From: a virus
Direction: 5' to 3' (one strand)
Virus record (IMG/VR): IMGVR_UViG_3300024999_000004
Coordinates: 29,596 to 93,595 of that record
Length of the DNA: 64,000 nt
Below are positions 2,383 through 16,420 of the stretch, piece by piece. Every line of letters begins with the position of its first letter. Position 1 is the stretch's first letter. The notes beneath the pieces were generated by a model. That model did not search any database. It saw only the letters and a program-made list of their open reading frames with translations, and was not told where the DNA came from. A program made the position numbers and the translations under genes.

Positions 2383-2383
2383 A

Positions 2384-3313: not shown

Positions 3314-3681
3314 TGAACCTTGAAGCAAAGGCCCTTTTCGATCAATTCGGACGCAAACTTGAAACAGGGAAGCGGGAATTTTACCGCAAGATCCGCGCCA
3401 TAAAGGAAGGCCATATCAACGCGGCAGACTTCCCCGCTACTTTCGCCTGGGAAAGGTCCTGCTATCGCGGACCGGCATATAATGAGGTAGCGATGCACGC
3501 ACTTTCCGAATTGCTTGAATGCTACGGCGTAGAATCCATAGACTCAAGCGAAACAAAAAACGGAGAGTATATTGACTACCTGAACGTAGGCGATCCTTAC
3601 ATACCGACCGTTGTAAGGTGTACCGCATGGACCCATGAATTCAGACTCGCAAAAGGAGGATACGCGGAATTCGTGAAATAG
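3310..3681 (+). CDS. Early hypothetical protein
   Basis: GGAGG SD; LLECYGVE...YLNVGDPY motif. Confidence 0.7.
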   Translation: MMNLEAKALFDQFGRKLETGKREFYRKIRAIKEGHINAADFPATFAWERSCYRGPAYNEVAMHALSELLECYGVESIDSSETKNGEYIDYLNVGDPYIPTVVRCTAWTHEFRLAKGGYAEFVK

Positions 3682-3779
3682 TGCGCTTGCGGGATTCTCT
3701 TTATGGTTTATACTATAAAGGGAATGATGCAATCGAACTATGAGCGATTGAAGTCTAAGCGAGAAGGAAGGTATTGAAT

Positions 3780-4154
3780 ATGAAGGCAAAAAGAGTCTAT
3801 GACTTCAGGGGCTTTGAAGGTCCGGACGCTTCGCTTGAAATATCACTTTTTGAGTATGGCCTCGCTTGGAAATGCACAAGCAAAACAAAGCAAGATTATT
3901 GCTTTGTATACGGCGTGCGCGCAAGCGATAAGGGAGAATATGACCGCTTCACCTATGCTACTCTTTCCCTTGACGACTGGAAGTCAATTGTCAATGAATC
4001 ATGGTTCAAGGCGGAATCGGTAGGAAATTACTTCGAACGTTCCGCCGAAACCTTGATAGAAGGATTCCCTGAATCTTTGCATGAGGGCGTGATATACCAT
4101 GGAACGGAGAATATTTTCGGTTCTTGCTACCATGAAGGGTTTGTAATAGTATGA
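3780..4154 (+). CDS. Early hypothetical protein
   Basis: GAAGG SD; DASLEISLFEYG motif. Confidence 0.7.
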   Translation: MKAKRVYDFRGFEGPDASLEISLFEYGLAWKCTSKTKQDYCFVYGVRASDKGEYDRFTYATLSLDDWKSIVNESWFKAESVGNYFERSAETLIEGFPESLHEGVIYHGTENIFGSCYHEGFVIV

Positions 4155-4330
4155 ACGCGCTGGCGAAATTCGAAGCGGAACCGTGTATCGGCGTACCGCT
4201 GGAATGGCTTCAACTGATAAAAGCCCACGCGCTTGAGCAAACACGGATTGCATTGATATCGCGCGAGCTGGACGATATGATCGATAGCGCGTGCCTTGAC
4301 AGCGACGAAGATTGAAAGGAGGGTAGAACC

Positions 4331-4624
4331 ATGAAAAGACAATTCAAGCCAGTACCTTGCAAGTATGGTGCACCTATGGGAAGGGATTCCTTCGGAGACC
4401 CGCGCAAAGTATCGGACAAGCGAATTTCACTTTTCCGCGTCCGTATGGTTGACGGAGACTATGACGACGGAGGCGCGTATTGGGGTGGATATCCTTCCTC
4501 TCCGCTCTACTGCGCAAGGACCGGCGACGGTTCAACCTATCGGGACTTCGCGCGCGCGAAAAGCCGGAAGGAAGCGGCGGAGATAATGGAAATTCCGGAC
4601 TCCAAGCTTAAAATAAGGGCATAG
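4331..4624 (+). CDS. Early hypothetical protein
   Basis: AGGAGG SD; YGAPMGR...GDYDDGGAYWG motif. Confidence 0.75.
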   Translation: MKRQFKPVPCKYGAPMGRDSFGDPRKVSDKRISLFRVRMVDGDYDDGGAYWGGYPSSPLYCARTGDGSTYRDFARAKSRKEAAEIMEIPDSKLKIRA

Positions 4625-4710
4625 AGGGCTTCCCTTTCCTTCCTTGTATAAAGGAAGGATGAGGAAACGCTTTATGCGCTTCATATCCATTTACTAAGGA
4701 AGGTACTATC

Positions 4711-4953
4711 ATGCGTTCCAAACGTTCCGACCTGATTCGCCGCGCCTTGCGCCTCCGATCCTCGGCCCTCCGCGCCTCCGACCCTCTCATGTGCGCGCTC
4801 CTGCTACGGCAAGCGAACGCATGTTTGCTTAAATCCGAGCGGCTTGACTCGATACTTCCGAGGAATCCGGTACGCGACTGCCGGGCGGCTATCATCGAAG
4901 GTCCCTATCGTGCCATGGCGCGGGCTTCAAGGTTCGCGGGAATAGAAGACTGA
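4711..4953 (+). CDS. Basic early hypothetical protein
   Basis: AAGGAAGG SD. Confidence 0.55.
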   Translation: MRSKRSDLIRRALRLRSSALRASDPLMCALLLRQANACLLKSERLDSILPRNPVRDCRAAIIEGPYRAMARASRFAGIED

Positions 4954-4969
4954 AGGAAAGGAAGGAAAC

Positions 4970-5362
4970 ATGAAAGCGGATATATCGAAGACTCAAGGAA
5001 TGGATAAGTTTTCCGTAGGAAACTATCGGGAAAAAGAATTGTACTACGGCTACAAATGCGTAGACAAGAAGGACGAGCGCGCAATCATCGATCTCCGCCT
5101 ATACGCTTCCCGGTCCGATAAGTACGGACGCAAATATGCGGTTATCTGGACGAAAGACGGAGCGGGGAAAGGATACGCGGGCGGTTACGGGTATGACAAG
5201 AAAAGCGCAGCCGTAAGCTCCGCGATAGAAGACGCGGGGATAAGCTTGAGCGAAAGGATCGACGGGGTAGGGGAAGATGCAATCCGCTCCGCGCTTTCCG
5301 CGATCATGGAAGCATACGGCTATACGCCGGAGGCTTGGATTCTCGTCGAATTCTACGCGTAG
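4970..5362 (+). CDS. Early hypothetical protein
   Basis: SD; GYAGGYGYDKKSAA motif. Confidence 0.75.
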   Translation: MKADISKTQGMDKFSVGNYREKELYYGYKCVDKKDERAIIDLRLYASRSDKYGRKYAVIWTKDGAGKGYAGGYGYDKKSAAVSSAIEDAGISLSERIDGVGEDAIRSALSAIMEAYGYTPEAWILVEFYA

Positions 5363-5449
5363 AACGCTTCGCCTGCCTTCCAGTACCTATTGGAAGGCGG
5401 ATCGAATCGCTTTATACACGATTCAATATATTCTCGCAAGGAGCGTACT

Positions 5450-5833
5450 ATGGAAGCAAGGAAAGCAATCGAACAGATCCGGAATGAAGCCTATCACAAG
5501 GAACAAAAGAAGGAAGCCCGCAAAGCCCTGAAGGCCAAAATCGGCTTCATCCCCAAAACCATCGATATTCAAGGCAAGGAATGGTTCGATAAAACGTACG
5601 GCAATTCTTACTTCTCCGCCGTCGTAACGCTCGATTATCTCCTTCCTACGCAAAAAACCATCGTCCTGCCCTTCCAGTACGGCTACGGGGATTCCTACAC
5701 GCAAGCGGCAGCCGAGGCCCTGGGGCTCAAGGCTCCCCTGTCATACTCCGCAAGGGAGGCGGGGATCATGCTGCGCGCGAATATCGAATGCGGATGCCTC
5801 CAGAGGGATGTCAAGAGGTGGGGGAGGGAATGA
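5450..5833 (+). CDS. Early hypothetical protein
   Basis: AAGGAG SD; EWFDKTYGNSYFS...PFQYGYG motif. Confidence 0.75.
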   Translation: MEARKAIEQIRNEAYHKEQKKEARKALKAKIGFIPKTIDIQGKEWFDKTYGNSYFSAVVTLDYLLPTQKTIVLPFQYGYGDSYTQAAAEALGLKAPLSYSAREAGIMLRANIECGCLQRDVKRWGRE

Positions 5834-6255
5834 AGGAAGATCCCCGCGCAAAATTCAAGGAAGAATTCGACAACGAATGGAAGGCCGAAATATTCTCTCC
5901 ATACGAGGATATCCCCCTCCTTTACTCTCCCGATAACCTGGAGCGCTTCAAGGAGCGTGTGAAAGTAGCTGCGCTCCTCCGCTATCGGCCTGACGATGAG
6001 GGAGTCCCGATCAACTGGTTCGCAGTCATTCAGGATTTAGGGATCGATTATACGTACATCATAAGGACACCGGAATTCATGGTCCAAAGGATCGAGGGCT
6101 ACATGGACCGGCTATATGAATCGGAAGGAGCCTTGATCCGGCTATACAACGGCGGGGCTATAGATATCATGGGGCTTGATTCCGTCAATGCTCGGATTCT
6201 CCCGGAGATTCTACGGGAGATAGCTTTGTACGAGGAAAGGAGCGTATCAAGATGA
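5830..6255 (+). CDS. Early hypothetical protein
   Basis: GGAGGG SD; ATGA coupling. Confidence 0.7.
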   Translation: MKEDPRAKFKEEFDNEWKAEIFSPYEDIPLLYSPDNLERFKERVKVAALLRYRPDDEGVPINWFAVIQDLGIDYTYIIRTPEFMVQRIEGYMDRLYESEGALIRLYNGGAIDIMGLDSVNARILPEILREIALYEERSVSR

Positions 6256-6467
6256 AGGAAGCCCGCTGGAAAACTGCAGTGAAGGAAGAGGCGAAGAAAG
6301 GAAAGGAGGGCTCTTTTATTCCGGCAATAAAGGAGCACAGAAAATTATGGGCAAGAATCCATGAATCCTGCCCCCTGATTCCTATGCCGCTACTATCAAA
6401 AAGCAAGGAAACCATAGAACGATACGCCCTGAAGCAAGGGCTTGTGTTTGTGCGGTTCAGGAGCTAG
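6252..6467 (+). CDS. Early hypothetical protein
   Basis: AGGAG SD; coupling. Confidence 0.55.
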   Translation: MKEARWKTAVKEEAKKGKEGSFIPAIKEHRKLWARIHESCPLIPMPLLSKSKETIERYALKQGLVFVRFRS

Positions 6468-6490
6468 ACCCTACTAAGGAGCACAAGGAA

Positions 6491-6604
6491 ATGAAGAATT
6501 CCATCGTAGTAGACGGGAAGAAGCGAGCTTGTCTTATGAAGCAAGGCAACAAATTCAAGGAACTATTCGACAAAGAATGGCAAGGAGAGTGCTATAATGA
6601 ATAA
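6491..6604 (+). CDS. 37-aa chimeric mini-ORF built from the starts of two neighbouring genes
   Basis: First 35 nt identical to 6907-6941; KFKELFDKEW resembles KFKEEFDNEW of the 5830 gene. Confidence 0.5.
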   Translation: MKNSIVVDGKKRACLMKQGNKFKELFDKEWQGECYNE

Positions 6605-6812
6605 GGCTTATGTTATTCGAAACAATAAAGGATATATACGTATCTACGAAGATGCGGGATGCTTTGAAGTAGTAGAGGATATCTCTGATGCTACATTCTA
6701 TGACTCCGAAACCTTTGCGTATGAGGGGCTGCTCAAACTAGGAAACGCCCTTCGCAGTTTTTCCGTTGAATTCTACCTAATACAATGCGTGGCTATAGTC
6801 TACGCGCGATAA
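6597..6812 (+). CDS. Early hypothetical protein
   Basis: AGGAG SD. Confidence 0.6.
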   Translation: MNKAYVIRNNKGYIRIYEDAGCFEVVEDISDATFYDSETFAYEGLLKLGNALRSFSVEFYLIQCVAIVYAR

Positions 6813-6906
6813 CCACAAGGAGGCCGCAGCGACAATATGCACAGTCATAAAATCAGCTTATAGGCGGCGAATTCACCCACAAGAATACAAGAAGGAGCAT
6901 ATCAAG

Positions 6907-7203
6907 ATGAAGAATTCCATCGTAGTAGACGGGAAGAAGCGGACATGCGTCATTTACGACAACGGAGGGCCGGACGCGCCCGACGGCTCCATAGACCGCT
7001 ATACCGTCATCCTCCGGGCCTATCGGGACAAGGGGCTAGGATGCATGGTATATCCCTACCTTGCGTGCTCGGAATCCCCCTTCCAGTCATTCGGGCAGAA
7101 TGGGGATTCATACGAATCAATCCGTGGTAAGCATCTAGGAAAGCGCGTCACCTTCGAAGACGCTCCAGAAGACGTGAAGGCGTTCATACTTCAGGAATTC
7201 TAG
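6907..7203 (+). CDS. Early hypothetical protein
   Basis: AAGGAG SD; YDNGG...DRYTV...HLGKRV motif. Confidence 0.75.
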   Translation: MKNSIVVDGKKRTCVIYDNGGPDAPDGSIDRYTVILRAYRDKGLGCMVYPYLACSESPFQSFGQNGDSYESIRGKHLGKRVTFEDAPEDVKAFILQEF

Positions 7204-7252
7204 CGCCCTCCCCTGCATAGGGAGGGAATCAAAGGATCAAGGAAGGAAAACG

Positions 7253-7564
7253 ATGGAAGCGACAAAACTAGCGGGAATACTCGCAGAACATGCAGCATGG
7301 TTGAAAGACCTCACGAAAGGAGAACGCGCGAACCTCCGGGGCGCGAACCTCCGGGGCGCGAACCTCCGGGGCGCGAACCTCGATTTTTCCTGTTTCCCCC
7401 TCTGGTGCGGGGGGACAAGATTCAAGGCGGGTGACAAGTTGATCATGCAGGTTCTGGCGCATCTTTGCTCCTGGGAAGTATCAGAGGAGGCGAAGGAAGA
7501 ACTCGACAAAGTAAGGGAGTATGCGAAAAAGTCGCATAGAGCGGAGGAATGCGGTATCCTCTAG
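7253..7564 (+). CDS. Pentapeptide-repeat protein
   Basis: (ANLRG)x3 encoded by the 15-bp tandem repeat GCGAACCTCCGGGGC, followed by LDFSCFPLWCG. Confidence 0.85.
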   Translation: MEATKLAGILAEHAAWLKDLTKGERANLRGANLRGANLRGANLDFSCFPLWCGGTRFKAGDKLIMQVLAHLCSWEVSEEAKEELDKVREYAKKSHRAEECGIL

Positions 7565-7595
7565 CCCGCGCGGCTTAATAAGGAGAAAACCTTAT

Positions 7596-8003
7596 ATGGA
7601 TCTAGCTATAGGCTACTTATTGTTCCTCGCATTCGTCCCGCAAACAGAAAACGCAACCTTCCATCCTGTCTACGGGGGCTTTGAACAAAGCATTACAGAA
7701 CCCGCGTTCGTAGCATCCATGGGCCTTAAGTTCACTCTAGGAAGATTCACGCTCTCCCCTACCATAGAAACGTACACAATGAAAAGCAAGGAATCTCCGT
7801 TTTTCAACCCCTTCCGCTCGGACTATGAAATCAGGGCGGAATTCCGGCTCTCCGATAAGGACGCGCCAACGCAAGTAACGGCGGGCGCATGGCATGAATG
7901 CGTGCATCCCGTGGACTCCGGGGACCTCCCCTCCGTTGTCAACAGATACGCGGGAGGGGAAACGCGATTTTATCTCAAGATTCAAGGGCTCACGGGTCCC
8001 TAG
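7596..8003 (+). CDS. Putative exported or beta-strand-rich envelope protein
   Basis: AAGGAG SD; hydrophobic N-terminus; alternating hydrophobic strands. Confidence 0.55.
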   Translation: MDLAIGYLLFLAFVPQTENATFHPVYGGFEQSITEPAFVASMGLKFTLGRFTLSPTIETYTMKSKESPFFNPFRSDYEIRAEFRLSDKDAPTQVTAGAWHECVHPVDSGDLPSVVNRYAGGETRFYLKIQGLTGP

Positions 8004-8100
8004 GAGGCCGCAGCGACAATATGCACAGTATATAGAAGGAAGTTGATCCAACTCACGCCTATAGGCCCGAAATTGCCTCCCTGGGCGGCGACTTCGCCCA

Positions 8101-8248
8101 TAAAAGACCCCGCGCATGGGGATAAAAGACCCCGCGCATGGGGATAAAAGACCCCGCGCATGGGGATAAAAGACCCCGCGCAAAGGGCAAAAGACCCCGC
8201 GCATGGGGATAAAAGACCCCGCGCAAAGGGCAAAAGACCCTATACGGG
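8101..8248. repeat. Tandem array of seven 21-22 bp hairpin units (T/C)AAAAGACCCCGCGCA(TGGGGA/AAGGG)
   Basis: Units start at 8101, 8123, 8145, 8167, 8188, 8210 and 8231; no spacers. Confidence 0.95.
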
Positions 8249-8271
8249 AGTACAAGAAGGAGCACAGACAA

Positions 8272-8790
8272 ATGAAATTCGAAGAAGGCAAGAGCTACAA
8301 AATAATAAAAAGTGCGACGAATCCCCCCGGCCCTCCTGTCAGTCTACACGACGGCTCACCTCATCTCTGCACCAAAGCCGTACCCGAAAGTGCGAACGTA
8401 CACGCAAGCTTCGATTGCGACGAATCCCCGGCCCTTATGACGATCTACACGCCGGAGGATATGGCGGACTTTCAGGAGGTGGCCACCGCCCGCAACGGAG
8501 TATTCATGGAAGCTTCCTACTTGGAAGCAGGCAACGAAAGCAACAAATTATTCGGGGTAGATGCGAACCACCTGAAGGACAAAACCATCGAAGTCCTCCG
8601 CATAGGGGAAGGAGAAAACACGGAAACGGCCGTCCTGATGGCCATAAGGAGCGGGGTCCTCACGTCCCGGGATCTTGCGGCCTTCACGGCGTATACGATC
8701 AGCGAAGCCTACGGAAAGGCTCAGATGAGGGAAGCCGCCCCGGATTCGCTCACGGCCCTCATGGAAGCCCTGAAGGGATATCGAGGATGA
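8272..8790 (+). CDS. Early hypothetical protein
   Basis: AAGGAG SD after the repeat array. Confidence 0.7.
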   Translation: MKFEEGKSYKIIKSATNPPGPPVSLHDGSPHLCTKAVPESANVHASFDCDESPALMTIYTPEDMADFQEVATARNGVFMEASYLEAGNESNKLFGVDANHLKDKTIEVLRIGEGENTETAVLMAIRSGVLTSRDLAAFTAYTISEAYGKAQMREAAPDSLTALMEALKGYRG

Positions 8791-9083
8791 AAACCACGGA
8801 AGCAAGGATATTCTGCGGCAGAGATGCCGAAGGCCCTATCATCATGGTCGGGGGGACGAAGGAAAAAATCTGCGGCATAGACGTGATTCAATACTTCCAG
8901 AAGCCTCCCTACAAGGAGGCTGCGAAGCATACAAAGTATGTATGCTGGGAAGGAAGAATCCGGACGGATATCGTCCCGGGAACCATGCTGGAGGAATCAA
9001 CGGAAGACTGCGCAGACCTGATCGAAAGGTTCTTCCCCTACGCCACAATAAAATACGTCACCTTGGAGGAGGTGCTGCAATAG
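8787..9083 (+). CDS. Early hypothetical protein, last of the cluster
   Basis: ATGA coupling. Confidence 0.65.
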   Translation: MKTTEARIFCGRDAEGPIIMVGGTKEKICGIDVIQYFQKPPYKEAAKHTKYVCWEGRIRTDIVPGTMLEESTEDCADLIERFFPYATIKYVTLEEVLQ

Positions 9084-9096
9084 GTACAGGGAATCA

Positions 9097-9143
9097 GAGG
9101 CCCCGGAGGCAAGGAATCCATGAATCCGGGGCCTCCATTTTAA
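9097..9143 (+). terminator. Terminator-like hairpin closing the early cluster
   Basis: GAGGCCCCGGA...TCCGGGGCCTC followed by CATTTTAA. Confidence 0.6.
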
Positions 9144-9323
9144 TACAAAATCAAGGATAACTTGGCATGAAAACCCTCGAACGAATTTTTACGATTTTTT
9201 ATTTTTTCTTCGCGTATAGAAGGTGTAAGTGTATGATTTTTCATACGCCTGACGATATTTCGACATTCATCGAAATCTAAATATAGAAAAATTCATCGGT
9301 ATGGACATTTTGGAGATAAAAGT

Positions 9324-10291
9324 TAAGTCCTTATATAGAAACAAGTTACGTGAGATTTTGGCGGAAAAATGCATAAAATGAGTTTATTTTAAAGTCATAC
9401 AGGGTAAGGAGTTACGCTAAGTTTTTCGTACATATAGAAAATAATATACTGTAAGTCCTTACTGGATAAGGAATTAAGAAAACATTACAATCATTATAAT
9501 TATAATGTTCACATACAGTGACGAAAAACGTAACTCTTTACTGGATAAGGAATTACGTTTTTCTTTGGTGAAAAAATAATTTACTTTTCTGGCAAGAGTG
9601 GTGTAACTCTTTACTATGCAAGGAATTATTTTACACCGGAATCTGGGTTTTTGGCGCATTTTGCGTGGACGCTAATTCCTTTCTATGTAAGGAGTTATGC
9701 ATAGGCACTAAAAATTCCTATCTTTTCCCCAAGATATGCGTAGTTTATACACCAAATTCGGAAACGACCTATGTAAATCCTTACAGGGAAAGGAAATATT
9801 CGTTTGTGTTTTATGCATAAAATATACAGAAAATAGGAAGGTTTGCACTGAATGAGCAAGAGTCAGGGGAGCATAAGAACTCGGGTTCAAAGTAAAGCTA
9901 CACCTAACAAGGAGTTATGAAAAAGAGAGTCCGGGGGTCCAGAGGCAGAAATTCAAAGAATACGGGAAAAACGCATACAATTATGCAGTGAGTGGAGATG
10001 AAGAAAAATAAAATTCGGGGCTCGGGGCTCGGGGGTAGCAAGAATCGTACCAAGCGGGAATCTTAGACAAGACTAACAATGAAATAACTCTTTATGTAGC
10101 AAGGATGTGGGGGCCCTATAGGGAGGGTTTTCAATTATTTTTCTTTTTATTTATATTTTATTACCAAATATGAACATTTCTGAAAAAAGCAAAACATTAT
10201 AATTGTAATGTTTTGAAAAAAGTTTTGATTTGGTGAAAAGATATAAATAAACATAATTTTTCGCTGTAATTCGTGGCTATGTATAGAGTTA
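9324..10291. repeat. Ten dispersed 25-bp imperfect palindromes TAAnTCCTT-N7-AAGGAnTTA
   Basis: Copies start at 9324, 9390, 9452, 9531, 9604, 9673, 9774, 9893, 10085 and 10267 in an AT-rich non-coding region. Confidence 0.9.
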
Positions 10292-10476
10292 AGGTGTTTT
10301 TCTGTTGTTTTTGTTTTCCCTTCTAATGCCTTTTGGCGGAAAAATAGACGTTTTGTCGTATGCATTTTGGAGCCCCGAGCCCCGAGCCCCGAGCCCCGAG
10401 CCCCGAGCCCCGCCAACCAGTAGTCAAGAGCCCCGAGCCCCGAGCCCCGCCCACCAGTATTCAAGAGCCCCCGAGC
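10016..10476. repeat. Divergent GAGCCCC heptamer arrays
   Basis: Minus-oriented copies at 10016-10034; plus-oriented 6+3+1 copies at 10370-10476 separated by a repeated GCC(A/C)ACCAGTA(G/T)TCAA linker. Confidence 0.95.
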
Positions 10477-10493
10477 TAAAAACTTAAAACTTC

Positions 10494-10522
10494 TTGACAA
10501 AAAATAAATTAAAGAGTATATT
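10494..10522 (+). promoter_or_regulatory. sigma70 promoter
   Basis: TTGACA-17-TATATT. Confidence 0.8.
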
Positions 10523-10549
10523 ATTTAAGTATTAATTACACCGCGTTTG

Positions 10550-10750
10550 ATGGAAGCCAAGATGCACGAAGGCAGAAAAGAAGTTAAGGTATTGAAAGTT
10601 CCGGAGGGCGATGATTTTGTTCTCGGCTTGCCGCGTTACTTCGTCCGGGACCTGCACAACCGGGGAGTGGAGTATGTACGTTTCACTGTGAAAGGGGCAG
10701 TCATAACCATCGAGCCAATGAACCCCGGATTCCTTGCTCCCTCTCATTGA
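10550..10750 (+). CDS. AbrB/MazE-like swapped-hairpin DNA-binding protein
   Basis: KVxKVPEG..FVLGLP...VRFTVKG.VITIEP pattern. Confidence 0.6.
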   Translation: MEAKMHEGRKEVKVLKVPEGDDFVLGLPRYFVRDLHNRGVEYVRFTVKGAVITIEPMNPGFLAPSH

Positions 10751-10762
10751 TGAGGGCATTAA

Positions 10763-10996
10763 ATGATCAATTTTCACAGTGACTCTCTGGGGGTAGACGG
10801 GACAGTAGACAAGACCGTCAAGATCCCGGAAGGCCGCAGCAAGCAGTTTGTCCTCTCCCTTCCCGTAGCTGCGGTAGACGCCATGAGAGACCTTGGAGCC
10901 AAGAAGGTCAGTGTTATTGTGCTGAAGGAAGGCGGCATACTCATTGTCCCCGTGAATCCTCCCATAAACCATAACCCCTATAAGTTTCCTTCCTAG
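10763..10996 (+). CDS. AbrB/MazE-like protein, paralog of the preceding gene
   Basis: KTVKIPEG...FVLSLP...GGILIVP. Confidence 0.6.
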   Translation: MINFHSDSLGVDGTVDKTVKIPEGRSKQFVLSLPVAAVDAMRDLGAKKVSVIVLKEGGILIVPVNPPINHNPYKFPS

Positions 10997-11011
10997 CACG
11001 ATAGATATTCC

Positions 11012-11040
11012 TTGACATAACATCTATTGTATGATAAGAT
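11012..11040 (+). promoter_or_regulatory. sigma70 promoter
   Basis: TTGACA-17-TAAGAT with TGn extension. Confidence 0.8.
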
Positions 11041-11077
11041 AGCCATATATTCCTTGTAAGCCCAGGAGGCTACTACA

Positions 11078-12253
11078 ATGAGCGTGCCCGCAACGAAAGA
11101 TATTTCTATTGTCAAGACAATCCTTTCCCACGGAGGGGACTGTGGATGTTTTCCTTGTGTTGAGTGTCCTTTGTCCCAACCAGAGGGCGAATGCCCCCGT
11201 GAAGGTGCTGATGACGACACTCTAAAGCTCGCGCAGGAGTGGCTGAAGAAGCACTCGCCCTCTTCCATTGTCGAGGTCGTAATCGCGCAGGAGGGGGAGT
11301 GCCTTGGGTTTTCTTGTTTCTCCTGCCCTTTGGAGGGCGAATGCGAACTAACTGACGCTTCCTCTTTCTCTGCGGCACTGAAGTGGATGGAGGAAAATTC
11401 GCCTTCCCCCCGCGCGGGCGTCAGCAGCTGGACGAACAACCAAGGCGAAGTCTTCCATATAGGAGACGAAGTTACAGGAGCGGCCTCCCCCGGAATCAGA
11501 GGGCGTATTCATTGTCAGAGCCACGCGCCGGATTTGGTTGTCGTTGTCCTCAGCGGGGATACTGCCCGGGGGTGGGGGAAAAGCCACAGCGACTTCCCGA
11601 AGGATCTCCCTCCTGAAGCAAAGTGCTGGAATGTCGCGGCGGAGTGTTTACGCAAAGCGCCTGCTGTTCTCTCCGGAGTAGAGGGATTCCGCGACAGCCT
11701 CGGAACTCCTATTGCTATCGGAGCCCGGATTCTCTGCTCCGATGCATCCGCTGCCTCCGCAAAGGCGGGGGTGGAAATCCATACCTTTGTGGGGATGCTT
11801 CCGGACGGAAGATACAAGGAAGATCGGGATTTTGGGTGGAGGTATTGCGTTGCAGTCTCCACCCCTCCGGTGGAGGGCGAGGGCTCAGAATTCAAGCCCG
11901 GGGATTTCGTGAGAAGCGAAGACTACCCTAACTTGAGGGGCTATATTCACTGTATGAAAGCAGACGGTGCTTATATTGTCATCCGCACCGACGGGGAGGG
12001 GTGGGACAAGAGCACGGAAGCCCTGACACAGGATCTCCCGGAGGGGACGAAATGCTGGAAGGTGAGTGCGGGGAGTTTAAGGAAAGCTCCTGCTTCGGAT
12101 TATACCTCCCGAGGAGTAGGAGGGTCGATGCACGCGCAACTGCTTGCCGGAGGGGAGCGAATAACTCTTGTTTGTCGCCCTTCTCCTACTCCTCTTCTTT
12201 CTACTACTCAGTCTTTTGACGAAATCCGGCTGCAGCTGCTCAGGGGGATGTAG
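11078..12253 (+). CDS. Modular protein: two Cys-rich repeats plus SH3/KOW-like GW-K...LPEGTKCW domains
   Basis: AGGAGG SD; internal repeats; C-terminus FDEIRLQLLRGM. Confidence 0.75.
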   Translation: MSVPATKDISIVKTILSHGGDCGCFPCVECPLSQPEGECPREGADDDTLKLAQEWLKKHSPSSIVEVVIAQEGECLGFSCFSCPLEGECELTDASSFSAALKWMEENSPSPRAGVSSWTNNQGEVFHIGDEVTGAASPGIRGRIHCQSHAPDLVVVVLSGDTARGWGKSHSDFPKDLPPEAKCWNVAAECLRKAPAVLSGVEGFRDSLGTPIAIGARILCSDASAASAKAGVEIHTFVGMLPDGRYKEDRDFGWRYCVAVSTPPVEGEGSEFKPGDFVRSEDYPNLRGYIHCMKADGAYIVIRTDGEGWDKSTEALTQDLPEGTKCWKVSAGSLRKAPASDYTSRGVGGSMHAQLLAGGERITLVCRPSPTPLLSTTQSFDEIRLQLLRGM

Positions 12254-12330
12254 AGCATTCTTGCCTGTGGGGTGTTTCCTGCTCGGTGGGGCGAAGTCGG
12301 TGACTACAGGCGAAAATTTGGAGGATTCAA

Positions 12331-12891
12331 ATGGGCTGGAAGAACACTTCAGGGTATTGTTTCAACATAGGCGATATTGTGGAGGACGCAGAAGATCCCT
12401 TGGTCAACGGGAAGGTTGTGGCTGTAGACTCCTCGGGGAATAATCTTGTCATCATTCGTTCCGATGGGAGGGGGTGGCCCAAGGAAGATCACGATTACAC
12501 GCAGCATCTCCCGGAGGGAACGAAGTGCTGGCATGTTTTGTTGGATGACTTGAGGCCACACAGTACGGAAGCTTCCGGATTCAAGGTCGGAGACTTCATC
12601 TGCGACAAGAGCAGCAATAATGTCATTGGGCGTATTCTCCTTGTCGATGAGGTCGGGGATTATCTGACAGAACGTGCCGAGCACCTGCCGAAAGGAACGA
12701 AGTGCTGGGGGGTACTGAAGAAGAACGCAGCCATGAGTACGCGGCCATGGCAGGAGATGTCCTTTGCAGGCCACGTCGGGAGCGAGCATATTATCCCCCT
12801 CCTGCGGCGTACCCAAGCAGAAATGAGAAGCGCCCGCGTAGTGGCGGACACCTTTGATAGCATCCGCCTGCAACTTCTCCGTGATTTGTAA
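12331..12891 (+). CDS. Paralog of the 11078 protein (LPxGTKCW domains)
   Basis: GGAGG SD; C-terminus FDSIRLQLLRDL. Confidence 0.75.
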   Translation: MGWKNTSGYCFNIGDIVEDAEDPLVNGKVVAVDSSGNNLVIIRSDGRGWPKEDHDYTQHLPEGTKCWHVLLDDLRPHSTEASGFKVGDFICDKSSNNVIGRILLVDEVGDYLTERAEHLPKGTKCWGVLKKNAAMSTRPWQEMSFAGHVGSEHIIPLLRRTQAEMRSARVVADTFDSIRLQLLRDL

Positions 12892-12918
12892 TAGCCTACC
12901 GTTCATTATAAATAGTAC

Positions 12919-12947
12919 TTGACATTACATACAATACATGGTATAGT
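12919..12947 (+). promoter_or_regulatory. sigma70 promoter
   Basis: TTGACA-17-TATAGT with TG extension. Confidence 0.85.
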
Positions 12948-13020
12948 GAATCCGGCATCCTGTATGGGCGTGCCTTAGTTTTGTACCGCCCCTGACCTAG
13001 GGTAGGGGCATGGAGCCAAC

Positions 13021-13341
13021 ATGAAAATGATCGAGTTCATCCGCAAGACCACCGCCGAAGTCATTGACGACATGAAAGCCCCGTTTCGCATGAGCATGAT
13101 CTCCCGGACCTTCGATTCCCTGATCGACAAGGCCGAGGAGACCCGCCTGGACGTGGAAACGAGCCTCTTGGACGAGCGGAAGGCGCTGTCGCTCTCCTCC
13201 GACGAGATCGAGGCGAAGGCGCACATCAAGCAGATCGTCGAGCTTCAGATGAGGCTCGCGGCTGCGGAGGCGAATGCCAAGGCCGTGGGGGCCGAGAAGG
13301 TCTTCGAGTTCGGGGATGCTCCCGCTGGCGGGCAGAAGTAG
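13021..13341 (+). CDS. Helical/coiled-coil hypothetical protein
   Basis: GGAG SD; strong GC3 codon bias. Confidence 0.75.
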   Translation: MKMIEFIRKTTAEVIDDMKAPFRMSMISRTFDSLIDKAEETRLDVETSLLDERKALSLSSDEIEAKAHIKQIVELQMRLAAAEANAKAVGAEKVFEFGDAPAGGQK

Positions 13342-13408
13342 GGGGCAATTCGGGGCTCCTGCCTGTTTTATTTCTTCCGCTGTATCTCTTGACTTGAAAG
13401 GAGTAAAA

Positions 13409-13816
13409 GTGAGCTATTTCAAGGAAGAATTCGAGGATGCTGTCGGTATCAAGTGGACCAAACGCATCATGGTTGCGGTGGCCGTCCTCGCGGTGTACAT
13501 TGCCATCTCTTTCTTTTCCGGCATCTGGCCCTTCTCTGTTGCGTCGGGCCTTGCCAAGGCCGTGGTGAACGAGAAGGCCATCATCCACAACTACGAATGG
13601 TTCTACGACCAATTCTCTTCCATTGTCGCGCAGGAGGCCAACGTCGCCGCCATGGAAGGAACCCCTGAGCAGCCGCCGATGATCATGGTCCTGAACAATG
13701 CAATTGCCGAGTACAACAGCAAATCGCGTATGGCTATGACGCGAACCCTTTGGAAGGCGGACGACCTTCCCTACCAGATCCCGTTCTATACCCGCACTAC
13801 AAGGAGCCCTGAATGA
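13409..13816 (+). CDS. Membrane-anchored hypothetical protein
   Basis: AAGGAG SD with GTG start; one TM; NYEWF...YN motif. Confidence 0.7.
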   Translation: MSYFKEEFEDAVGIKWTKRIMVAVAVLAVYIAISFFSGIWPFSVASGLAKAVVNEKAIIHNYEWFYDQFSSIVAQEANVAAMEGTPEQPPMIMVLNNAIAEYNSKSRMAMTRTLWKADDLPYQIPFYTRTTRSPE

Positions 13817-14367
13817 AGAAATTCTTCTCCCTCGTTTTGTTTGTCGTTTTCGCGCTTTCCCTCAACGTCTGCCCGGTTTTAGCCGAAGGCACCCCCGACG
13901 CCCGTTCTCAGGCTGTCACGCAATCACAGGCTACGGCACGTACTGCGAGGACAGCGGTACCCATTCCTCAGCTTTCCTACTTCCAGGAACTCAAGACGGC
14001 GGCGCGGTGGGCGGAAAGATGGGACAAGCCCTCGGTAGTCACCTTTGTCTACCTTGTGTCCTTCGGAAAGGTCTTGGGGTACTACGTTGCCGACGGAAAG
14101 CCTGCGTCCACGAGATCTTATATAACTCCGGAAAGCCACATTGGGGGCGGAGGTACGGCAGGGTACTATGAGGAATCCCTTCCTGATCTCGATGGCACCT
14201 ACGGAGAGAACAATGTCGGCATACGATTCTTCACCGCAGAGGGAGTTGCTTCCGAGTGGGGCGGAAACGGGATGTGTTATTTGTACACCGACGCTCCCGC
14301 AGACTTCGGGTACGAGGTTCCCCGGCTTTATAAGAAGGCAGGCGCAGGAGCTGCGGGGAAGAAGTAG
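13813..14367 (+). CDS. Secreted hypothetical protein
   Basis: Signal peptide; YVYL/GYY/GK.S/PD.DGTYG motifs; coupled to the upstream gene. Confidence 0.75.
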   Translation: MKKFFSLVLFVVFALSLNVCPVLAEGTPDARSQAVTQSQATARTARTAVPIPQLSYFQELKTAARWAERWDKPSVVTFVYLVSFGKVLGYYVADGKPASTRSYITPESHIGGGGTAGYYEESLPDLDGTYGENNVGIRFFTAEGVASEWGGNGMCYLYTDAPADFGYEVPRLYKKAGAGAAGKK

Positions 14368-14441
14368 AAAGGCAGGCCCCGGCAGGATATGTCGGGGCGA
14401 AGTCGGCGACTACAGGCGGATTTTTTGAAGGAGGCCTTCCT

Positions 14442-14708
14442 ATGTTGTTCGAAATATCCGATGAGGACATCAGGACCCTTGAGGAGGCTTCCTTTGAACT
14501 TGCTTGGGACACAGCCTACGGGAACGTGGGGGCACGCACAGCCATGAGGTCACTTGACGCCCTCGCACGAAGGATGCGTGAAGCCCAAAGAGAAACCGTT
14601 CGTGGCTCCTCCCGAGCCCGGATTCTTGGAGCCGTCGCATACTTGCTCCTTGCCATGGCCGGTATCCTCGGCGCTTGCTGGTTATATACTCTATCTCTTC
14701 CGAAGTAG
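14442..14708 (+). CDS. Hypothetical protein with C-terminal TM
   Basis: AGGAGG SD. Confidence 0.6.
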   Translation: MLFEISDEDIRTLEEASFELAWDTAYGNVGARTAMRSLDALARRMREAQRETVRGSSRARILGAVAYLLLAMAGILGACWLYTLSLPK

Positions 14709-14760
14709 CCGCCTGCCTCGCGGGTAGGGGCTGGTTATTTGCCTTCAGTAAAAGGAGCCT

Positions 14761-15345
14761 ATGATGCAGGATTCACAGATGCTTGACCCCCACGCCGTGT
14801 TTTGTTCCCTTTTTCGTGGAGGAAGCAAGGCTCACGGTCAGCTTCTTCGCGGTAAAGTTTACTCCACGATCTTTGGGCCGACGACCCCCGCCGACTACGC
14901 CTCTCATCTGGCGGGGCACATAAGCCTCGGGATCGTCCCTGTTCTTGACGACGGATCTTGCCGTTTCGGAGTCATCGACGTGGATTTGATTCCGTCCATT
15001 TCCTCGGGAGGGGAGGCGCATTTGATCCGCGAAGCGTGGAAGCTCGGGCTCCGCCCGTTCCGGTCAAAAAGCGGAGGGCTTCATTTGTACGCTTTCTTTC
15101 GTGTCACGGAAGCTGCGGAGGAAATTCGTGACTATCTTCTTGAACTTTGTCAGGAACTCAGTCTCCCGCAAAATACCGACATTTTCCCTCGGACATCAAG
15201 GGACTTCCTGTCATGGGTCAATCTCCCTTATTTCGGGGATACCCGACGCATGATTATGCAGGATGGGTGTGAGGTCTCTTTTCATGAGGCCATGGAATCT
15301 CTATCCCGATTTCTGCCTTCAGTAAAAGGAGCCACAGATGCTTGA
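14761..15345 (+). CDS. Stand-alone AEP (primase-polymerase) catalytic domain, paralog of the 40882 primase N-terminus
   Basis: HLxG..LGI.P...CxFGxIDVD, PFRSKSGGLH, IFP and WVNLPYFG motifs shared with 40882..42588. Confidence 0.8.
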   Translation: MMQDSQMLDPHAVFCSLFRGGSKAHGQLLRGKVYSTIFGPTTPADYASHLAGHISLGIVPVLDDGSCRFGVIDVDLIPSISSGGEAHLIREAWKLGLRPFRSKSGGLHLYAFFRVTEAAEEIRDYLLELCQELSLPQNTDIFPRTSRDFLSWVNLPYFGDTRRMIMQDGCEVSFHEAMESLSRFLPSVKGATDA

Positions 15346-15934
15346 ACTCCGTATCGTCACTTTCGTGTTTATCTTGTGGGGAGTCGCTTCCCTGTCCTTC
15401 TCGCTCGGGTTTATCTTGTGCTCTTTGTTCAAAATATCCCCGCCGGAGCCAGACTCCCCTGTAACCAGCGGGGAGATCGAAGTCGGCTCCCGTGTCTCTT
15501 TTAAGTCGGCTGGCGGCTACTGTTGGAGCGTTCCTCATCAGAATTTCTACGGGATCGTGGAAGAGTTGGGGGCAACTTCCTGCAATGTCGCCATCTACGA
15601 CAGGAGAACAGGGAAGAGAAGCCAGATTCTTGACTCCCGGCATCCCGAGCCATGGACCTTCCTGTTTTCGGAGATTGGGTTGGAGGAAAAGCCGAAACTC
15701 GATCCGAAATTCAAAGTCGGAGACAAAGTTGTTCCGATCAGCAAGTCAGTGGGGGATACTTTGGAAGGGTCCTTCGCGTGGAAAGAGGCCAAGGCAGGAA
15801 GAGGCTTCCTTGTTTTTGAGGGAATCGACATTGATATTCCTTGTCTCGTCTGCGACGGCGATTTCTTCCTCGAAGAGGATCTTGTTTTGTACGATCCTCC
15901 GGCCTCGGGGCCTGTGCATCTTCACGAAAACTGA
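15338..15934 (+). CDS. Hypothetical protein, N-terminal TM plus FKVGD SH3-like modules
   Basis: AAGGAG SD. Confidence 0.6.
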   Translation: MLELRIVTFVFILWGVASLSFSLGFILCSLFKISPPEPDSPVTSGEIEVGSRVSFKSAGGYCWSVPHQNFYGIVEELGATSCNVAIYDRRTGKRSQILDSRHPEPWTFLFSEIGLEEKPKLDPKFKVGDKVVPISKSVGDTLEGSFAWKEAKAGRGFLVFEGIDIDIPCLVCDGDFFLEEDLVLYDPPASGPVHLHEN

Positions 15935-15987
15935 TTTTCAAGTTTTTCTTTGTTTGAAGTCGCCGCGTAAGAACGAAGATAATTGTA

Positions 15988-16016
15988 TTGACATAACATC
16001 TACTACATGATACAAT
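15988..16016 (+). promoter_or_regulatory. sigma70 promoter
   Basis: TTGACA-17-TACAAT with TG; spacer nearly identical to the 11012 promoter. Confidence 0.85.
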
Positions 16017-16042
16017 AGAGTCTAAGATTCAGGAGGCCCTAG

Positions 16043-16420
16043 ATGGATAATTTGTTCGAGAAAGCGCTGCGCATGAAACTCCGGTTCCCGCTCCTGGGAA
16101 GTCTCACCTGCGAGGACCTGTGGGATGTCGGCGTGGAGCAGCTTGACGCCTGCTTCCAGCTCCTTAGTCCTAAAGGGGTAGCCGGGGTATCTTTGCTCAA
16201 ACCCGAGGGCTACAAGGACGAGAAGCTTGAGCTTCAGCTTGAAATCCTCCGCCGTGTCGTGGAGGTAAAGCTGGCGGAAGCACAGGCCAAGACCGAAGCC
16301 AAGGCCCGCAAGGCCAAGCGGCAGAAACTCATGGAAGTCCTCGAATCCAAGAAGGAAGGGGAACTCCTCGGGAAGACGACCGAGGAACTCCAGAAGATGC
16401 TGGACGATCTCGAAGGCTGA
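16043..16420 (+). CDS. Conserved phage protein (LRF...EDLWD family)
   Basis: AGGAGG SD; LFEKAxRxKLRF...EDLWD and a C-terminal coiled coil. Confidence 0.8.
   Translation: MDNLFEKALRMKLRFPLLGSLTCEDLWDVGVEQLDACFQLLSPKGVAGVSLLKPEGYKDEKLELQLEILRRVVEVKLAEAQAKTEAKARKAKRQKLMEVLESKKEGELLGKTTEELQKMLDDLEG

What the first reader, a model, noticed from the sequence alone, without database searches (positions are those of the whole stretch)
9140..10490. 1.3-kb control region: ten spaced palindromes, divergent heptamer arrays and an AT-rich core
Seen: ten TAAnTCCTT-N7-AAGGAnTTA sites with an invariant 7-bp spacer (one extended by GAAAAACG/CGTTTTTC). GAGCCCC arrays point away from each other at 10016-10034 and 10370-10476. 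Between them lie the palindrome CCCTATAGGG (10114), a very AT-rich tract (10131-10270) and the near-palindrome AAAACATTATAATTGTAATGTTTT, which is echoed at ~9479. Inference: either a bidirectional origin (binding-site array plus unwinding element) or an injection-stop signal like the one ending the T5 first-step-transfer segment. The site array could also titrate a host dimeric protein.
Basis: partly seen in the sequence, partly recalled or inferred. Interest (0 to 1): 0.78.

Follow-up and report, generated by a model that had tools for sequence, protein, structure and literature searches.

The report
Phage origin-like region with host-oriC palindromes
A 1.35-kb gene-free stretch of an uncultured 94-kb phage combines the least stable DNA of the genome with an array of a 25-base palindrome that also sits inside the chromosomal replication origin of a group of planctomycete bacteria, so it is most likely where the phage starts copying its DNA with help from a host origin protein.

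Summary
The gap 9136-10493 has no supported gene. It holds 8-9 copies (5 strong) of TAAnTCCTT-N7-AAGGAnTTA (0.26 expected by chance) and no other copy lies in the 93.6-kb genome. It also holds inverted GAGCCCC arrays, an 82% A+T core and a repeated AT palindrome.

New here:
- The palindromes show no pairing covariation and fold weakly, so they are protein sites, not hairpins.
- The core is the least stable DNA of the genome (about 5 sd).
- The same palindrome family lies in the dnaA-dnaN spacer (predicted oriC) of five related planctomycete genomes with the phage's G+C. One copy sits between inverted DnaA boxes, and spacing is 67-71 bp.
- An unrelated phage contig has its only two copies beside a DnaA-box cluster.
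- Many other phages carry the palindrome as pairs 53 bp apart between small genes. No protein is shared with this phage, which points to a host reader.

Best reading (0.4): a phage replication origin built on sites for a host origin-architectural protein. This is inferred, not shown. Rivals are a T5-like injection-stop region, an operator hub and a decoy. No close relative's DNA could be fetched.

The parts
9097..9135 (+). Strong terminator-like hairpin that ends the + strand early operon (last ORF 8160-9083)
   Evidence: The inverted repeat has 19-nt arms (I21). The RNA fold is -29.9 kcal/mol with z -5.0, and CAUUUUAAU follows.
9324..9798 (.). Main array of seven 25-bp palindromes (9324, 9390, 9452, 9531, 9604, 9673, 9774). 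Start-to-start spacing is 62-101 bp and the DNA between them is AT-rich.
   Evidence: Position 4/22 is never a Watson-Crick pair in any copy (read). The RNA hairpins are weak, -5 to -7.5 kcal/mol with z -0.5 to -1.1.
9523..9563 (.). Extended palindrome around site 9531 (GAAAAACG ... CGTTTTTC)
   Evidence: I22. The fold is -18.5 kcal/mol with z -4.8.
9479..9509 (.). AT-rich palindrome AAAACATTACAATCATTATAATTATAATGTT, the first copy of the element at 10190-10213
   Evidence: D9, D17, I12 and I19 (90% identity).
9893..9917 (.). Degenerate palindrome. Its right half AAGGAGTTATG doubles as a ribosome-binding site plus ATG for a 24-codon basic ORF (9917-9991).
   Evidence: 3 mismatches. The sequence was read.
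10015..10034 (+). TCGGGGC x2.9, the left heptamer array, with the G-rich strand on +
10085..10109 (.). Palindrome copy at the left edge of the AT-rich core, followed by CCCTATAGGG (10114-10123)
10131..10270 (.). AT-rich core, the candidate unwinding element. It holds imperfect 46-nt inverted arms (10141-10186 / 10211-10256) around the palindrome at 10190-10213.
   Evidence: It is the most AT-rich window of the 93.6-kb genome at window sizes of 60, 100, 140 and 200 bp (at 400 and 1000 bp the top window starts at 9184/9272, still inside the region). The 100-bp duplex energy is -107 kcal/mol against a genome mean of -143 (sd 7.4). The ssDNA fold has z -2.0.
10267..10291 (.). Very degenerate palindrome look-alike at the right edge of the core
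   Evidence: D1 (80% to the reference copy). It is not found at 3 mismatches or fewer.
10331..10345 (+). TTTTGGCGGAAAAAT, identical to 9356-9370
   Evidence: D5.
10370..10476 (+). GAGCCCC arrays (6+3+1 copies within a 37-bp super-repeat), with the G-rich strand on -. They hold the only two canonical G-quadruplex motifs of the window.
10494..10522 (+). Near-consensus sigma-70 promoter TTGACA-17-TATATT that drives the next operon
   Evidence: 11 of 12 positions match.
10547..10996 (+). Two small paralogous proteins (10547-10750 and 10763-10996). They are possible AbrB/MazE-like DNA binders and the first genes after the region.
   Evidence: They share 40% identity. There is no Pfam or PHROG hit. 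The AlphaFold2 model has pLDDT 63.5 and no fold match. The nearest ESM Atlas models are MazE/AbrB/PrlF at TM 0.46-0.52.

Best explanation
The region is most likely the phage's replication origin, or at least its replication-control region. It is built from docking sites for a host protein that also works at the host's chromosomal origin.

Shown: an array of 25-bp two-fold-symmetric sites of the dsDNA protein-binding type lies next to the least stable duplex of the genome. The array sits between a terminator and a strong promoter. The same site family is a conserved part of the dnaA-dnaN origin spacer in one planctomycete lineage. It also lies beside a DnaA-box cluster in a second, unrelated phage.

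Inferred:
- A dimeric host architectural protein, possibly of the IHF/HU kind, binds the sites and bends or wraps about 0.8 kb of DNA.
- This strain helps open the AT-rich core at 10131-10270.
- The phage's own primase, helicases and polymerase, encoded downstream on the same strand, load there.
- The inverted G-rich heptamer arrays that flank the core may stabilise the open state, by G-quadruplex or R-loop formation when transcribed towards the core. Alternatively they bind one of the two small proteins made from the adjacent promoter.
For: 1. The site array is far beyond chance and confined to this region.

2. The sites behave as protein sites, not hairpins. In 136 copies from other phages, the Watson-Crick fraction at the four variable symmetric pairs equals the shuffled expectation, and the same holds across paired copies. 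In this phage, position 4/22 never pairs and the hairpins fold weakly.

3. The core at 10131-10230 is the least stable 100 bp of the 93.6-kb genome, about 4.9 sd from the mean. The region holds the top AT-rich windows at every scale tested.

4. Host origin link. Genome G005 (4.7 Mb) has only 3 sites at 2 mismatches or fewer, and 2 of them lie in the dnaA-dnaN spacer; a looser pattern finds 4 there. Matches lie 300-600 bp downstream of dnaA on the same contig in G005, G082, G083, G086 and G087. The aligned spacers show one palindrome between inverted DnaA boxes. In G005 and G086 three more follow at spacing 194-195/71/67 bp; G083 keeps two of these and G082 and G087 fewer. The anchors TAA....TT-N7-AA....TTA are kept while the inner bases drift. 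The G+C there is 0.50-0.52, against 0.52 for the phage.

5. Second phage. Contig G090 has only two copies, at 156 and 231. They lie in a 900-bp non-coding stretch with 5 DnaA-box-like 9-mers within 210 bp, against a background of 0.26 per 800 bp.

6. No phage protein is shared between this phage and other carriers of the palindrome, which fits a host-encoded reader.

7. Precedent from the literature. IHF binds between DnaA boxes R1 and R5M in E. coli oriC and promotes unwinding (PMC10325909). The HU/IHF-family protein Hbb binds a specific, partly palindromic site in the dnaA-dnaN spacer of B. burgdorferi (PMC2811001).

8. Replication genes follow on the same strand: AEP primase pieces, two helicases and a family-A polymerase.
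Against: - Cumulative GC skew rises straight through the region. Its turns coincide with the switches of transcription direction near 1.5 kb and 58.5 kb, so skew gives no support.
- No initiator gene is recognisable next to the region.
- There is no DnaA-box cluster inside it.
- Site spacing (62-101 bp) is wider and less regular than in classical iteron origins.
- A second candidate control region with 3 x 28-bp direct repeats lies at the divergent promoter region (1860-2090).
- In other phages the same palindrome occurs 20-30 times between genes. The site itself is therefore not origin-specific.
- That the host is a planctomycete of that lineage is not shown.
- The motif is lineage-restricted even within the phylum: 3 of 61 genomes carry it.
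- No homologous region from a relative could be fetched.
Confidence: 0.4

Rival explanations
1. The region is a T5-like injection-stop or transfer-pause region. The early operon 2210-9083 would be first-entering DNA. The non-coding repeat field after its terminator, loaded with host origin-type protein sites, would halt DNA entry until early proteins are made. It might also lie at the inner end of a long terminal repeat that the assembly collapsed.
For: The T5 record has the same layout: + strand genes 6495-9157, a terminator, a non-coding 'injection stop signal' at 9140-10149, the end of the terminal repeat at 10219, and further non-coding DNA up to 10936. The T5 iss holds several families of spaced repeats and DnaA-box-like words (CTGTGGATAAC), which are host-oriC protein sites. 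TerL lies upstream on the other strand, so a physical end near 1.7-2.2 kb is plausible. TerL is distantly similar, about 28%, to terminases of T5-size phages.
Against: There is no sequence or gene kinship with Demerecviridae. The T5 repeats are direct and different in sequence. The genome ends and the direction of entry are unknown, because the record is a circularised assembly with a 104-bp overlap. The mechanism of the T5 iss is itself unknown. The nearest relatives of TerL are 36-kb Vibrio siphophages.
Confidence: 0.2
2. The region is a transcriptional switch hub. The palindromes, the heptads, or both would be operators for the two small paralogous proteins made from the promoter at 10494. 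These proteins would insulate the early operon from the next operon and autoregulate, in the way omega-protein heptad arrays work on pSM19035.
For: A terminator (9097-9135) and a near-consensus promoter (10494-10522) bracket the region. The contiguous 7-bp heptad arrays end 18 bp upstream of the -35 box. The first two genes are small paralogues whose nearest models are MazE/AbrB/PrlF DNA binders.
Against: DNA binding by these proteins is unproven: there is no Pfam hit, the model has pLDDT 63.5 and no fold match was found. Homologues of them are absent from the other phages that carry the palindrome. The palindrome also sits in a bacterial oriC. An operator hub does not need 1.35 kb or the least stable DNA of the genome.
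Confidence: 0.15
3. The region is a decoy. The array would soak up the host protein that normally binds the palindromes in the host origin. This would block host initiation or free the protein's other targets, without itself being the phage origin.
For: The candidate host origin has up to 4 sites, while the phage region has 8-9, and that number multiplies as the phage genome is copied. The site family is very rare elsewhere in those host genomes, at 1-3 per genome.
Against: One incoming genome only about doubles the number of sites. This reading does not explain the extreme AT-rich core or the flanking G-rich arrays. No measurement of any kind bears on it.
Confidence: 0.1
4. The palindromes are recombination core sites of an integron-like or tyrosine-recombinase system, or RNA hairpins (terminators or processing sites) of a non-coding transcript.
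For: The 9-7-9 geometry equals that of tyrosine-recombinase core sites. In other phages, pairs with a GC-rich centre separate small genes like cassette boundaries, and three of five such units fold as long hairpins.
Against: No tyrosine recombinase is found in five phage genomes, while the control search rings in 14 of 14 genomes. There is no pairing covariation within or across copies. No ORFs lie between the copies in this phage. The single-copy hairpins are weak. There is no Rfam family match.
Confidence: 0.05

Closest known systems
Bacterial oriC with an architectural-protein site among DnaA boxes (E. coli IHF site between R1 and R5M; B. burgdorferi Hbb site in the dnaA-dnaN spacer)
   Same: A sequence-specific site for a bending protein lies next to an AT-rich unwinding element. 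In the planctomycete spacers one palindrome sits exactly between inverted DnaA boxes (PMC10325909 and PMC2811001). The half-site anchors TAA-N4-TTR / YAA-N4-TTA fit the short core YAANNNNTTR of the IHF consensus. That consensus is from my own knowledge; the column frequencies are.
   Different: The phage region has no DnaA-box cluster. It has 8-9 sites rather than one or two. The full IHF consensus WATCAA is not present. The inner bases GTCC are conserved, which the IHF consensus does not require. The reader protein is unidentified.
Phage and plasmid iteron origins (lambda ori with four dyad-symmetric O-protein sites plus an AT-rich tract; R6K and pSC101 origins with IHF sites)
   Same: There is an array of two-fold-symmetric protein sites beside an AT-rich, easily melted tract.
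   Different: The spacing is 62-101 bp rather than about two helical turns. No adjacent initiator gene is recognisable. The sites look host-read rather than phage-read.
Injection stop signal (iss) of phage T5, NC_005859 9140-10149
   Same: It is a non-coding stretch of 1 kb or more after the terminator of a + strand early gene set. It holds several families of spaced repeats and palindromes, host-oriC-type protein boxes and a G-skewed segment.
   Different: The T5 repeats are direct and unrelated in sequence. T5 uses DnaA boxes. Membership needs a long terminal repeat and two-step entry, and neither can be tested here.
omega-protein heptad arrays of plasmid pSM19035 (contiguous 7-bp repeats in direct and inverted orientation upstream of promoters)
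   Same: Contiguous 7-bp units occur in arrays of 3-6 copies in both orientations. The larger array lies directly upstream of a promoter that drives small dimer-type proteins.
   Different: The heptad sequence is GC-rich (GAGCCCC). The arrays flank an AT-rich core 335 bp wide. No ribbon-helix-helix or partition gene was found. The comparison rests on my own knowledge.

Membership tests
Replication origin (binding-site array plus unwinding element) | Cluster of repeated protein-binding sites | tested here: met
   There are 8-9 palindromes against 0.26 expected, all within 9324-10109. Their protein-site character is supported by the lack of pairing covariation.
Replication origin (binding-site array plus unwinding element) | Adjacent AT-rich tract of exceptionally low duplex stability | tested here: met
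   10131-10230 is the least stable 100 bp of the genome, at -107 against -143 (sd 7.4) kcal/mol.
Replication origin (binding-site array plus unwinding element) | Strand-composition turn at the site | tested here: not met
   Cumulative GC skew rises through the region and turns only where the direction of transcription changes. The test is confounded by transcription.
Replication origin (binding-site array plus unwinding element) | Initiator known or encoded beside it; replication start mapped | not testable with these tools
   The flanking proteins are orphans. No read data are available.
Sites shared with a cellular oriC | The same motif is conserved in a dnaA-dnaN origin spacer | tested here: met
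   Five planctomycete genomes carry it, and in G005, G083 and G086 the copies keep orthologous positions (spacing 194-195/71/67 bp); G082 and G087 keep fewer. Whether these bacteria are the host is not shown.
T5-type injection stop signal | Non-coding repeat field after the terminator of the early gene set | tested here: met
T5-type injection stop signal | Lies at the inner end of a long terminal repeat that enters first | not testable with these tools
   The record is a circularised assembly with a 104-bp overlap. No reads are available.
T5-type injection stop signal | Kinship with T5-like phages or similarity of the repeats | tested here: not met
   There is no DNA match. The polymerase is about 30% identical to diverse phages. 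TerL is about 28% identical to T5-size phages over its ATPase half. The repeat words differ.
IHF/HU-family binding site | Consensus WATCAANNNNTTR | tested here: inconclusive
   Only the core YAA-N4-TTR is matched. Positions 10 and 16, which the search did not fix, are R in 87% and Y in 86% of 136 copies. The WATC part is absent.
IHF/HU-family binding site | Bound and bent by an IHF/HU protein | not testable with these tools
   This needs EMSA or footprinting. Only one of five phage genomes searched for the family (PF00216) encodes an HU/IHF homologue.
Tyrosine-recombinase core site / integron attC | Cognate tyrosine recombinase present | tested here: not met
   PF00589 is absent from G000-G004, while the control search rings in 14 of 14 genomes.
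Tyrosine-recombinase core site / integron attC | Folded-strand pairing kept by compensatory change | tested here: not met
   The observed Watson-Crick fractions equal the shuffled expectation within copies and across pairs.
Intrinsic terminators / structured RNA | Stable hairpin with a U-tract, or a known RNA family | tested here: not met
   Single palindromes fold at -5 to -7.5 kcal/mol with z of -1.1 or weaker. There is no Rfam hit. Only 9097-9135 and 9523-9563 are strong hairpins.
AbrB/MazE/SpoVT fold (proteins 10547-10750 and 10763-10996) | Profile or fold match | tested here: inconclusive
   There is no Pfam hit and no PDB sequence hit. The AlphaFold2 model has pLDDT 63.5 and Foldseek gives E above 0.2. 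The nearest ESM Atlas models are MazE/AbrB/PrlF at TM 0.46-0.52.

The most novel reading that the evidence does not exclude
A conserved 25-bp site, TAAsTCCTTR-N5-YAAGGAsTTA, is the docking site of a so far unnamed host origin-architectural protein. The protein may be of the IHF/HU kind, or a second DnaA-like protein. Bacteria of at least one planctomycete lineage use the site inside oriC. Unrelated phages have captured it for two purposes: as a clustered array at their own origin (this phage and G090), and as phased pairs 53 bp apart that bracket a GC-rich centre between early-gene cassettes (G001-G004 and a dozen other contigs). If so, one host protein would link chromosome initiation, phage replication and the architecture of phage early regions.
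Probability: 0.25. Interest if true: 0.8.

Novelty: new variant of a known kind. Interest (0 to 1): 0.62.

Why it matters
Replication origins of uncultured lytic phages are almost never located, and origins of Planctomycetota have not, to my knowledge, been dissected. Here one short DNA word ties a phage control region to a bacterial oriC.

This gives three things:
- a testable origin for this phage;
- a candidate host lineage for an orphan 94-kb phage;
- a handle (the 25-bp site) for fishing out the protein that reads it.

The same word, arranged differently, marks gene boundaries in many other phages. The reader protein may therefore be a general target of phage genome architecture.

Tried and rejected
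Relatives
- No DNA match for the region in the phage collection.
- No relatives in IMG/VR or JGI metagenomes of the flanking proteins (307 aa and 391 aa) or of the small protein's one homologue.
- The big protein search found a 72%-identical relative on an 8.3-kb contig.
- The 107 loci that share the 737-aa protein are not syntenic upstream.

RNA and coding
- No Rfam family in the region or in other phages' elements.
- ORFs inside the region have no family support.

Origin markers and host
- No DnaA-box cluster in the region.
- Shared 10-mers between the region and the host oriC spacers are too few to count as evidence.
- The other host copies of the palindrome lie beside unrelated genes (HMG-CoA reductase, an aminotransferase, a TPR peptidase), so no regulon or reader gene emerged.
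- No CRISPR-like or other specific DNA match of window 1-20000 to the planctomycete order. The hits were only a pentapeptide-repeat tract.
- The scan of bacterial genomes gives mostly single sites just after tRNA genes. I set these aside because palindromic terminators are so common that this number is expected, and many of them are orthologous.

Literature
- Literature search for the motif words returned only noise.
- No paper on planctomycete oriC palindromes was found.

Candidate reader proteins
- The sigma factor shared by G001-G004 has no counterpart shared with this phage.
- MazE/AbrB family and tyrosine-recombinase searches were negative.
- The structure route for the small protein failed.

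Packaging
- TerL relatives do not settle the packaging type.
Full report
WHAT THE WINDOW IS

The window is bases 29596-93595 of a 93,595-bp IMG/VR virus record with a 104-bp terminal overlap, that is, a circularised assembly. Terminase, portal and tail genes lie on the minus strand upstream of the window. From about 2.2 kb to 57.9 kb of the window nearly all genes are on the plus strand.

The plus-strand genes begin with an operon of orphan genes at 2210-9083, which includes a pentapeptide-repeat protein. After the region under study come AEP-primase pieces, helicases, RtcB and a family-A polymerase. The polymerase is only about 30% identical to any cultured phage's, so the phage is an orphan.

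The gap from 9136 to 10493 has no ORF with any family support.

Palindromes. TAANTCCTT-N7-AAGGANTTA occurs 8 times at 3 mismatches or fewer, against 0.26 expected. The whole genome adds one more copy, at 9893, and none outside 9324-10109. Two copies are exact, three have one mismatch and the rest are weak.

Other features.
- The opposed heptamer arrays, TCGGGGC x2.9 at 10015-10034 and GAGCCCC 6+3+1 at 10370-10476.
- CCCTATAGGG at 10114.
- The AT-rich tract and the AT palindrome at 10190-10213, echoed at 9479-9509.

Bracketing signals. A strong terminator-like hairpin lies at 9097-9135 (-29.9 kcal/mol, z -5.0). A near-consensus promoter, TTGACA-17-TATATT, lies at 10494-10522.

PROTEIN SITES, NOT HAIRPINS

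As RNA, the single palindromes fold at -5 to -7.5 kcal/mol, no better than shuffles. Only the extended copy at 9523-9563 is stable. In the phage's own copies, position 4 never pairs with position 22.

The decisive test used 136 copies of the same site from other phage contigs, found with a pattern that fixes only the ten anchor bases. At the four free symmetric pairs the Watson-Crick fractions are 0.45, 0.64, 0.46 and 0.42. Shuffling gives 0.47, 0.69, 0.47 and 0.42. The same absence of covariation holds between the two members of paired copies.

Positions 10 and 16 were not fixed by the search, yet they are purine in 87% and pyrimidine in 86% of copies. The site is therefore really TAAsTCCTTR-N5-YAAGGAsTTA. 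Two degenerate half-sites read on duplex DNA by a dimer fit these facts best.

THE CORE IS EXCEPTIONAL

The window starting at 10131 is the least stable 100 bp of the whole genome, at -107 against -143 +/- 7.4 kcal/mol. The region holds the top AT-rich windows at 60, 100, 140, 200, 400 and 1000 bp. The core is an imperfect 46-nt inverted repeat, and its single-strand fold has z -2.0.

The heptamer arrays are unique in the genome. They give the only two canonical G-quadruplex motifs of the window, on the minus strand. The left array has its G-rich strand on plus. The G-rich strands therefore both run 5'-3' towards the core.

THE PALINDROME IS NOT PRIVATE TO THIS PHAGE

A scan of IMG/VR with the motif found many contigs with 10-30 copies each. 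In these contigs the copies come mostly as pairs 52-53 bp apart, which is five helical turns. Each pair brackets a GC-rich centre of about 28 bp. One pair occurs every 0.5-2 kb between small genes (median 84-92 aa), and the pairs are confined to a stretch of 20 kb or less.

These phages have 34-39% G+C and share essentially no protein with this one. Among themselves, the four I fetched whole share a small sigma factor next to the element field. None has a tyrosine recombinase. Only one of the five genomes searched for an HU/IHF homologue has one. The reader of the site is therefore probably a host protein.

THE KEY RESULT: THE SITE SITS IN A BACTERIAL oriC

The scan of 185,579 bacterial and archaeal species genomes gave mostly single sites, many just after tRNA genes. 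I discount these, because palindromic terminators are so common that this number is expected by chance.

One locus stood out, L241, from a planctomycete MAG (genome G005). Four copies lie in the 700-bp spacer between dnaA and dnaN. The whole 4.7-Mb genome has only three sites at 2 mismatches or fewer, and two of them lie in this spacer.

In the same order I compared the motif positions with the positions of the DnaA C-terminal domain. A copy lies 300-600 bp downstream of dnaA on the same contig in G005, G082, G083, G086 and G087.

The alignment of the five spacers shows this order of elements:
- DnaA boxes of the TATTCCACA type.
- One palindrome exactly between two inverted boxes (CTGTGGAATAA ... 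GTATTCCACAG).
- In G005 and G086, three further palindromes at spacing 194-195, 71 and 67 bp; G083 keeps two of them, and G082 and G087 fewer. Their anchors are conserved while the inner bases drift.
- The dnaN promoter.

These spacers have 50-52% G+C, like the phage. The 67-71-bp spacing resembles the phage's 62-79 bp.

A second planctomycete genome (G006) has a single copy in 2.8 Mb, about 25 bp upstream of dnaA. The motif is lineage-restricted: only 3 of 61 sampled genomes of the phylum have a copy at 1 mismatch or fewer.

A SECOND PHAGE WITH THE ORIGIN-LIKE ARRANGEMENT

Contig G090 (30.4 kb) shares no protein with this phage beyond a weak polymerase match. It has only two copies of the palindrome, with the AAGGAATTA half-site typical of this phage. 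They lie at 156 and 231 in a 900-bp non-coding stretch. Five DnaA-box-like 9-mers, including a perfect TTATCCACA, follow within 210 bp. The background is 0.26 per 800 bp.

HOW IT MOST LIKELY WORKS

In three independent settings the site keeps company with origin hallmarks:
- DnaA boxes in a bacterial oriC.
- A DnaA-box cluster in phage G090.
- The least stable duplex of this phage.

In E. coli, IHF binds between DnaA boxes R1 and R5M and promotes unwinding (PMC10325909). In B. burgdorferi, the HU/IHF-family homodimer Hbb binds a specific, partly palindromic site in the dnaA-dnaN spacer (PMC2811001).

I therefore read the palindromes as docking sites of a host origin-architectural protein. I read the region as the phage origin. 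In this reading, bending or wrapping of the array, together with transcription from the flanks and the G-rich arrays, opens the core, and the phage replisome loads there. All steps after 'protein-type sites next to an exceptional AT-rich core, shared with an oriC' are inference. I put this reading at 0.4.

RIVALS

T5-like injection stop. The T5 injection stop signal has a strikingly similar layout and also carries host-origin boxes. However, the ends of this genome are unknown and there is no kinship with T5.

Operator hub. The two small paralogous proteins after the promoter could read the sites. Their DNA-binding fold has only weak support, and they have no homologues in the other carriers of the palindrome.

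Decoy. This reading cannot be excluded.

Recombination site or RNA hairpin. These readings are largely refuted.

Skew. GC skew gives no help, because it follows transcription.

LIMITS

- The host is not established.
- No protein has been shown to bind anything.

Noticed in passing
L204 (G001), L089 (G002), L144 (G003 162-181 kb), L097 (G004 25.5-32.4 kb); also L099, L150, L169, L172/L183, L195, L200, L132 (G091): There is a widespread composite element in phage contigs. Two 25-bp palindromes TAAGTCCTT-N7-AAGGACTTA lie 52-53 bp apart around a GC-rich centre of about 28 bp, with one unit every 0.5-2 kb between small genes. The units are confined to a stretch of 20 kb or less. There is no pairing covariation, no Rfam family and no tyrosine recombinase. 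The function is unknown.
   Followed up: partly
L241 6844-7201 (G005 contig C4); L349-L352: The dnaA-dnaN spacer of five related planctomycete genomes carries 2-4 copies of the same palindrome family; in G005, G083 and G086 the copies sit at orthologous positions. One copy sits between inverted DnaA boxes. This looks like an undescribed oriC component.
   Followed up: yes
L137 / L361 1-920 (G090): The start of an unrelated 30-kb phage contig looks like an origin. It holds an ATT-repeat tract, TATACATTT repeats, two palindromes (156 and 231) and five DnaA-box-like 9-mers at 376-584, including a perfect TTATCCACA.
   Followed up: partly
window 8100-8240: A 22-bp tandem array (6.5 copies, each a CCCC...GGGG hairpin) carries TTATCCCCA four times on the minus strand. 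This word is one mismatch from a DnaA box, and the same variant occurs in G090's box cluster. The array lies about 0.9 kb upstream of the region and overlaps the start of ORF 8160-9083.
   Followed up: no
window 1860-2175: A second repeat-rich control region lies at the divergent gene junction and the cumulative-skew minimum. It holds the palindromes CCTATAGCGT...ACGCTATAGG and TACGCTACATGTAGCGTA, three 28-bp direct repeats (2006-2085), and then the early promoter region ahead of the ATG at 2210. It is an alternative origin or packaging-end candidate.
   Followed up: no
window 12289, 14395, 15952, 18734, 23768 (+); 6845, 8066 (-): A 34-bp element, G(GGC/TTT)GAAGTCGCCG.CTA.AG.CG..TTTT, ends a few bases before a ribosome-binding site on the plus-strand copies. 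The two minus-strand copies lie antisense inside the early operon and have no ribosome-binding site after them. It looks like a phage-specific promoter or 5' leader rather than a replication-oriented word.
   Followed up: partly
window 9917-9991: A 24-codon, very basic ORF (MKKRVRGSRGRNSKNTGKTHTIMQ) has a ribosome-binding site that is the right half of a degenerate palindrome (AAGGAGTTATG). The same 11-mer occurs at 9689, followed by only 4 codons.
   Followed up: no
window 7253-7564: A pentapeptide-repeat protein (Pfam E 7e-08) lies in the early operon. It is encoded in part by a perfect 15-bp x3.7 tandem repeat (7326-7381). It may be a DNA mimic.
   Followed up: no
G005 order, 21 genomes: Nearly every genome of this planctomycete order has two proteins with a DnaA C-terminal domain, one next to dnaN and one elsewhere. 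The second is a candidate for reading a different 9-mer.
   Followed up: no
G002 17907-18173 (-); G001 3817-4350, G002 22605-23255, G003 160082-160756, G004 35170-35850: G002 encodes an HU/IHF-family protein inside its palindrome field. All four fully fetched carrier phages share a small sigma-70-family factor at the edge of the field.
   Followed up: partly
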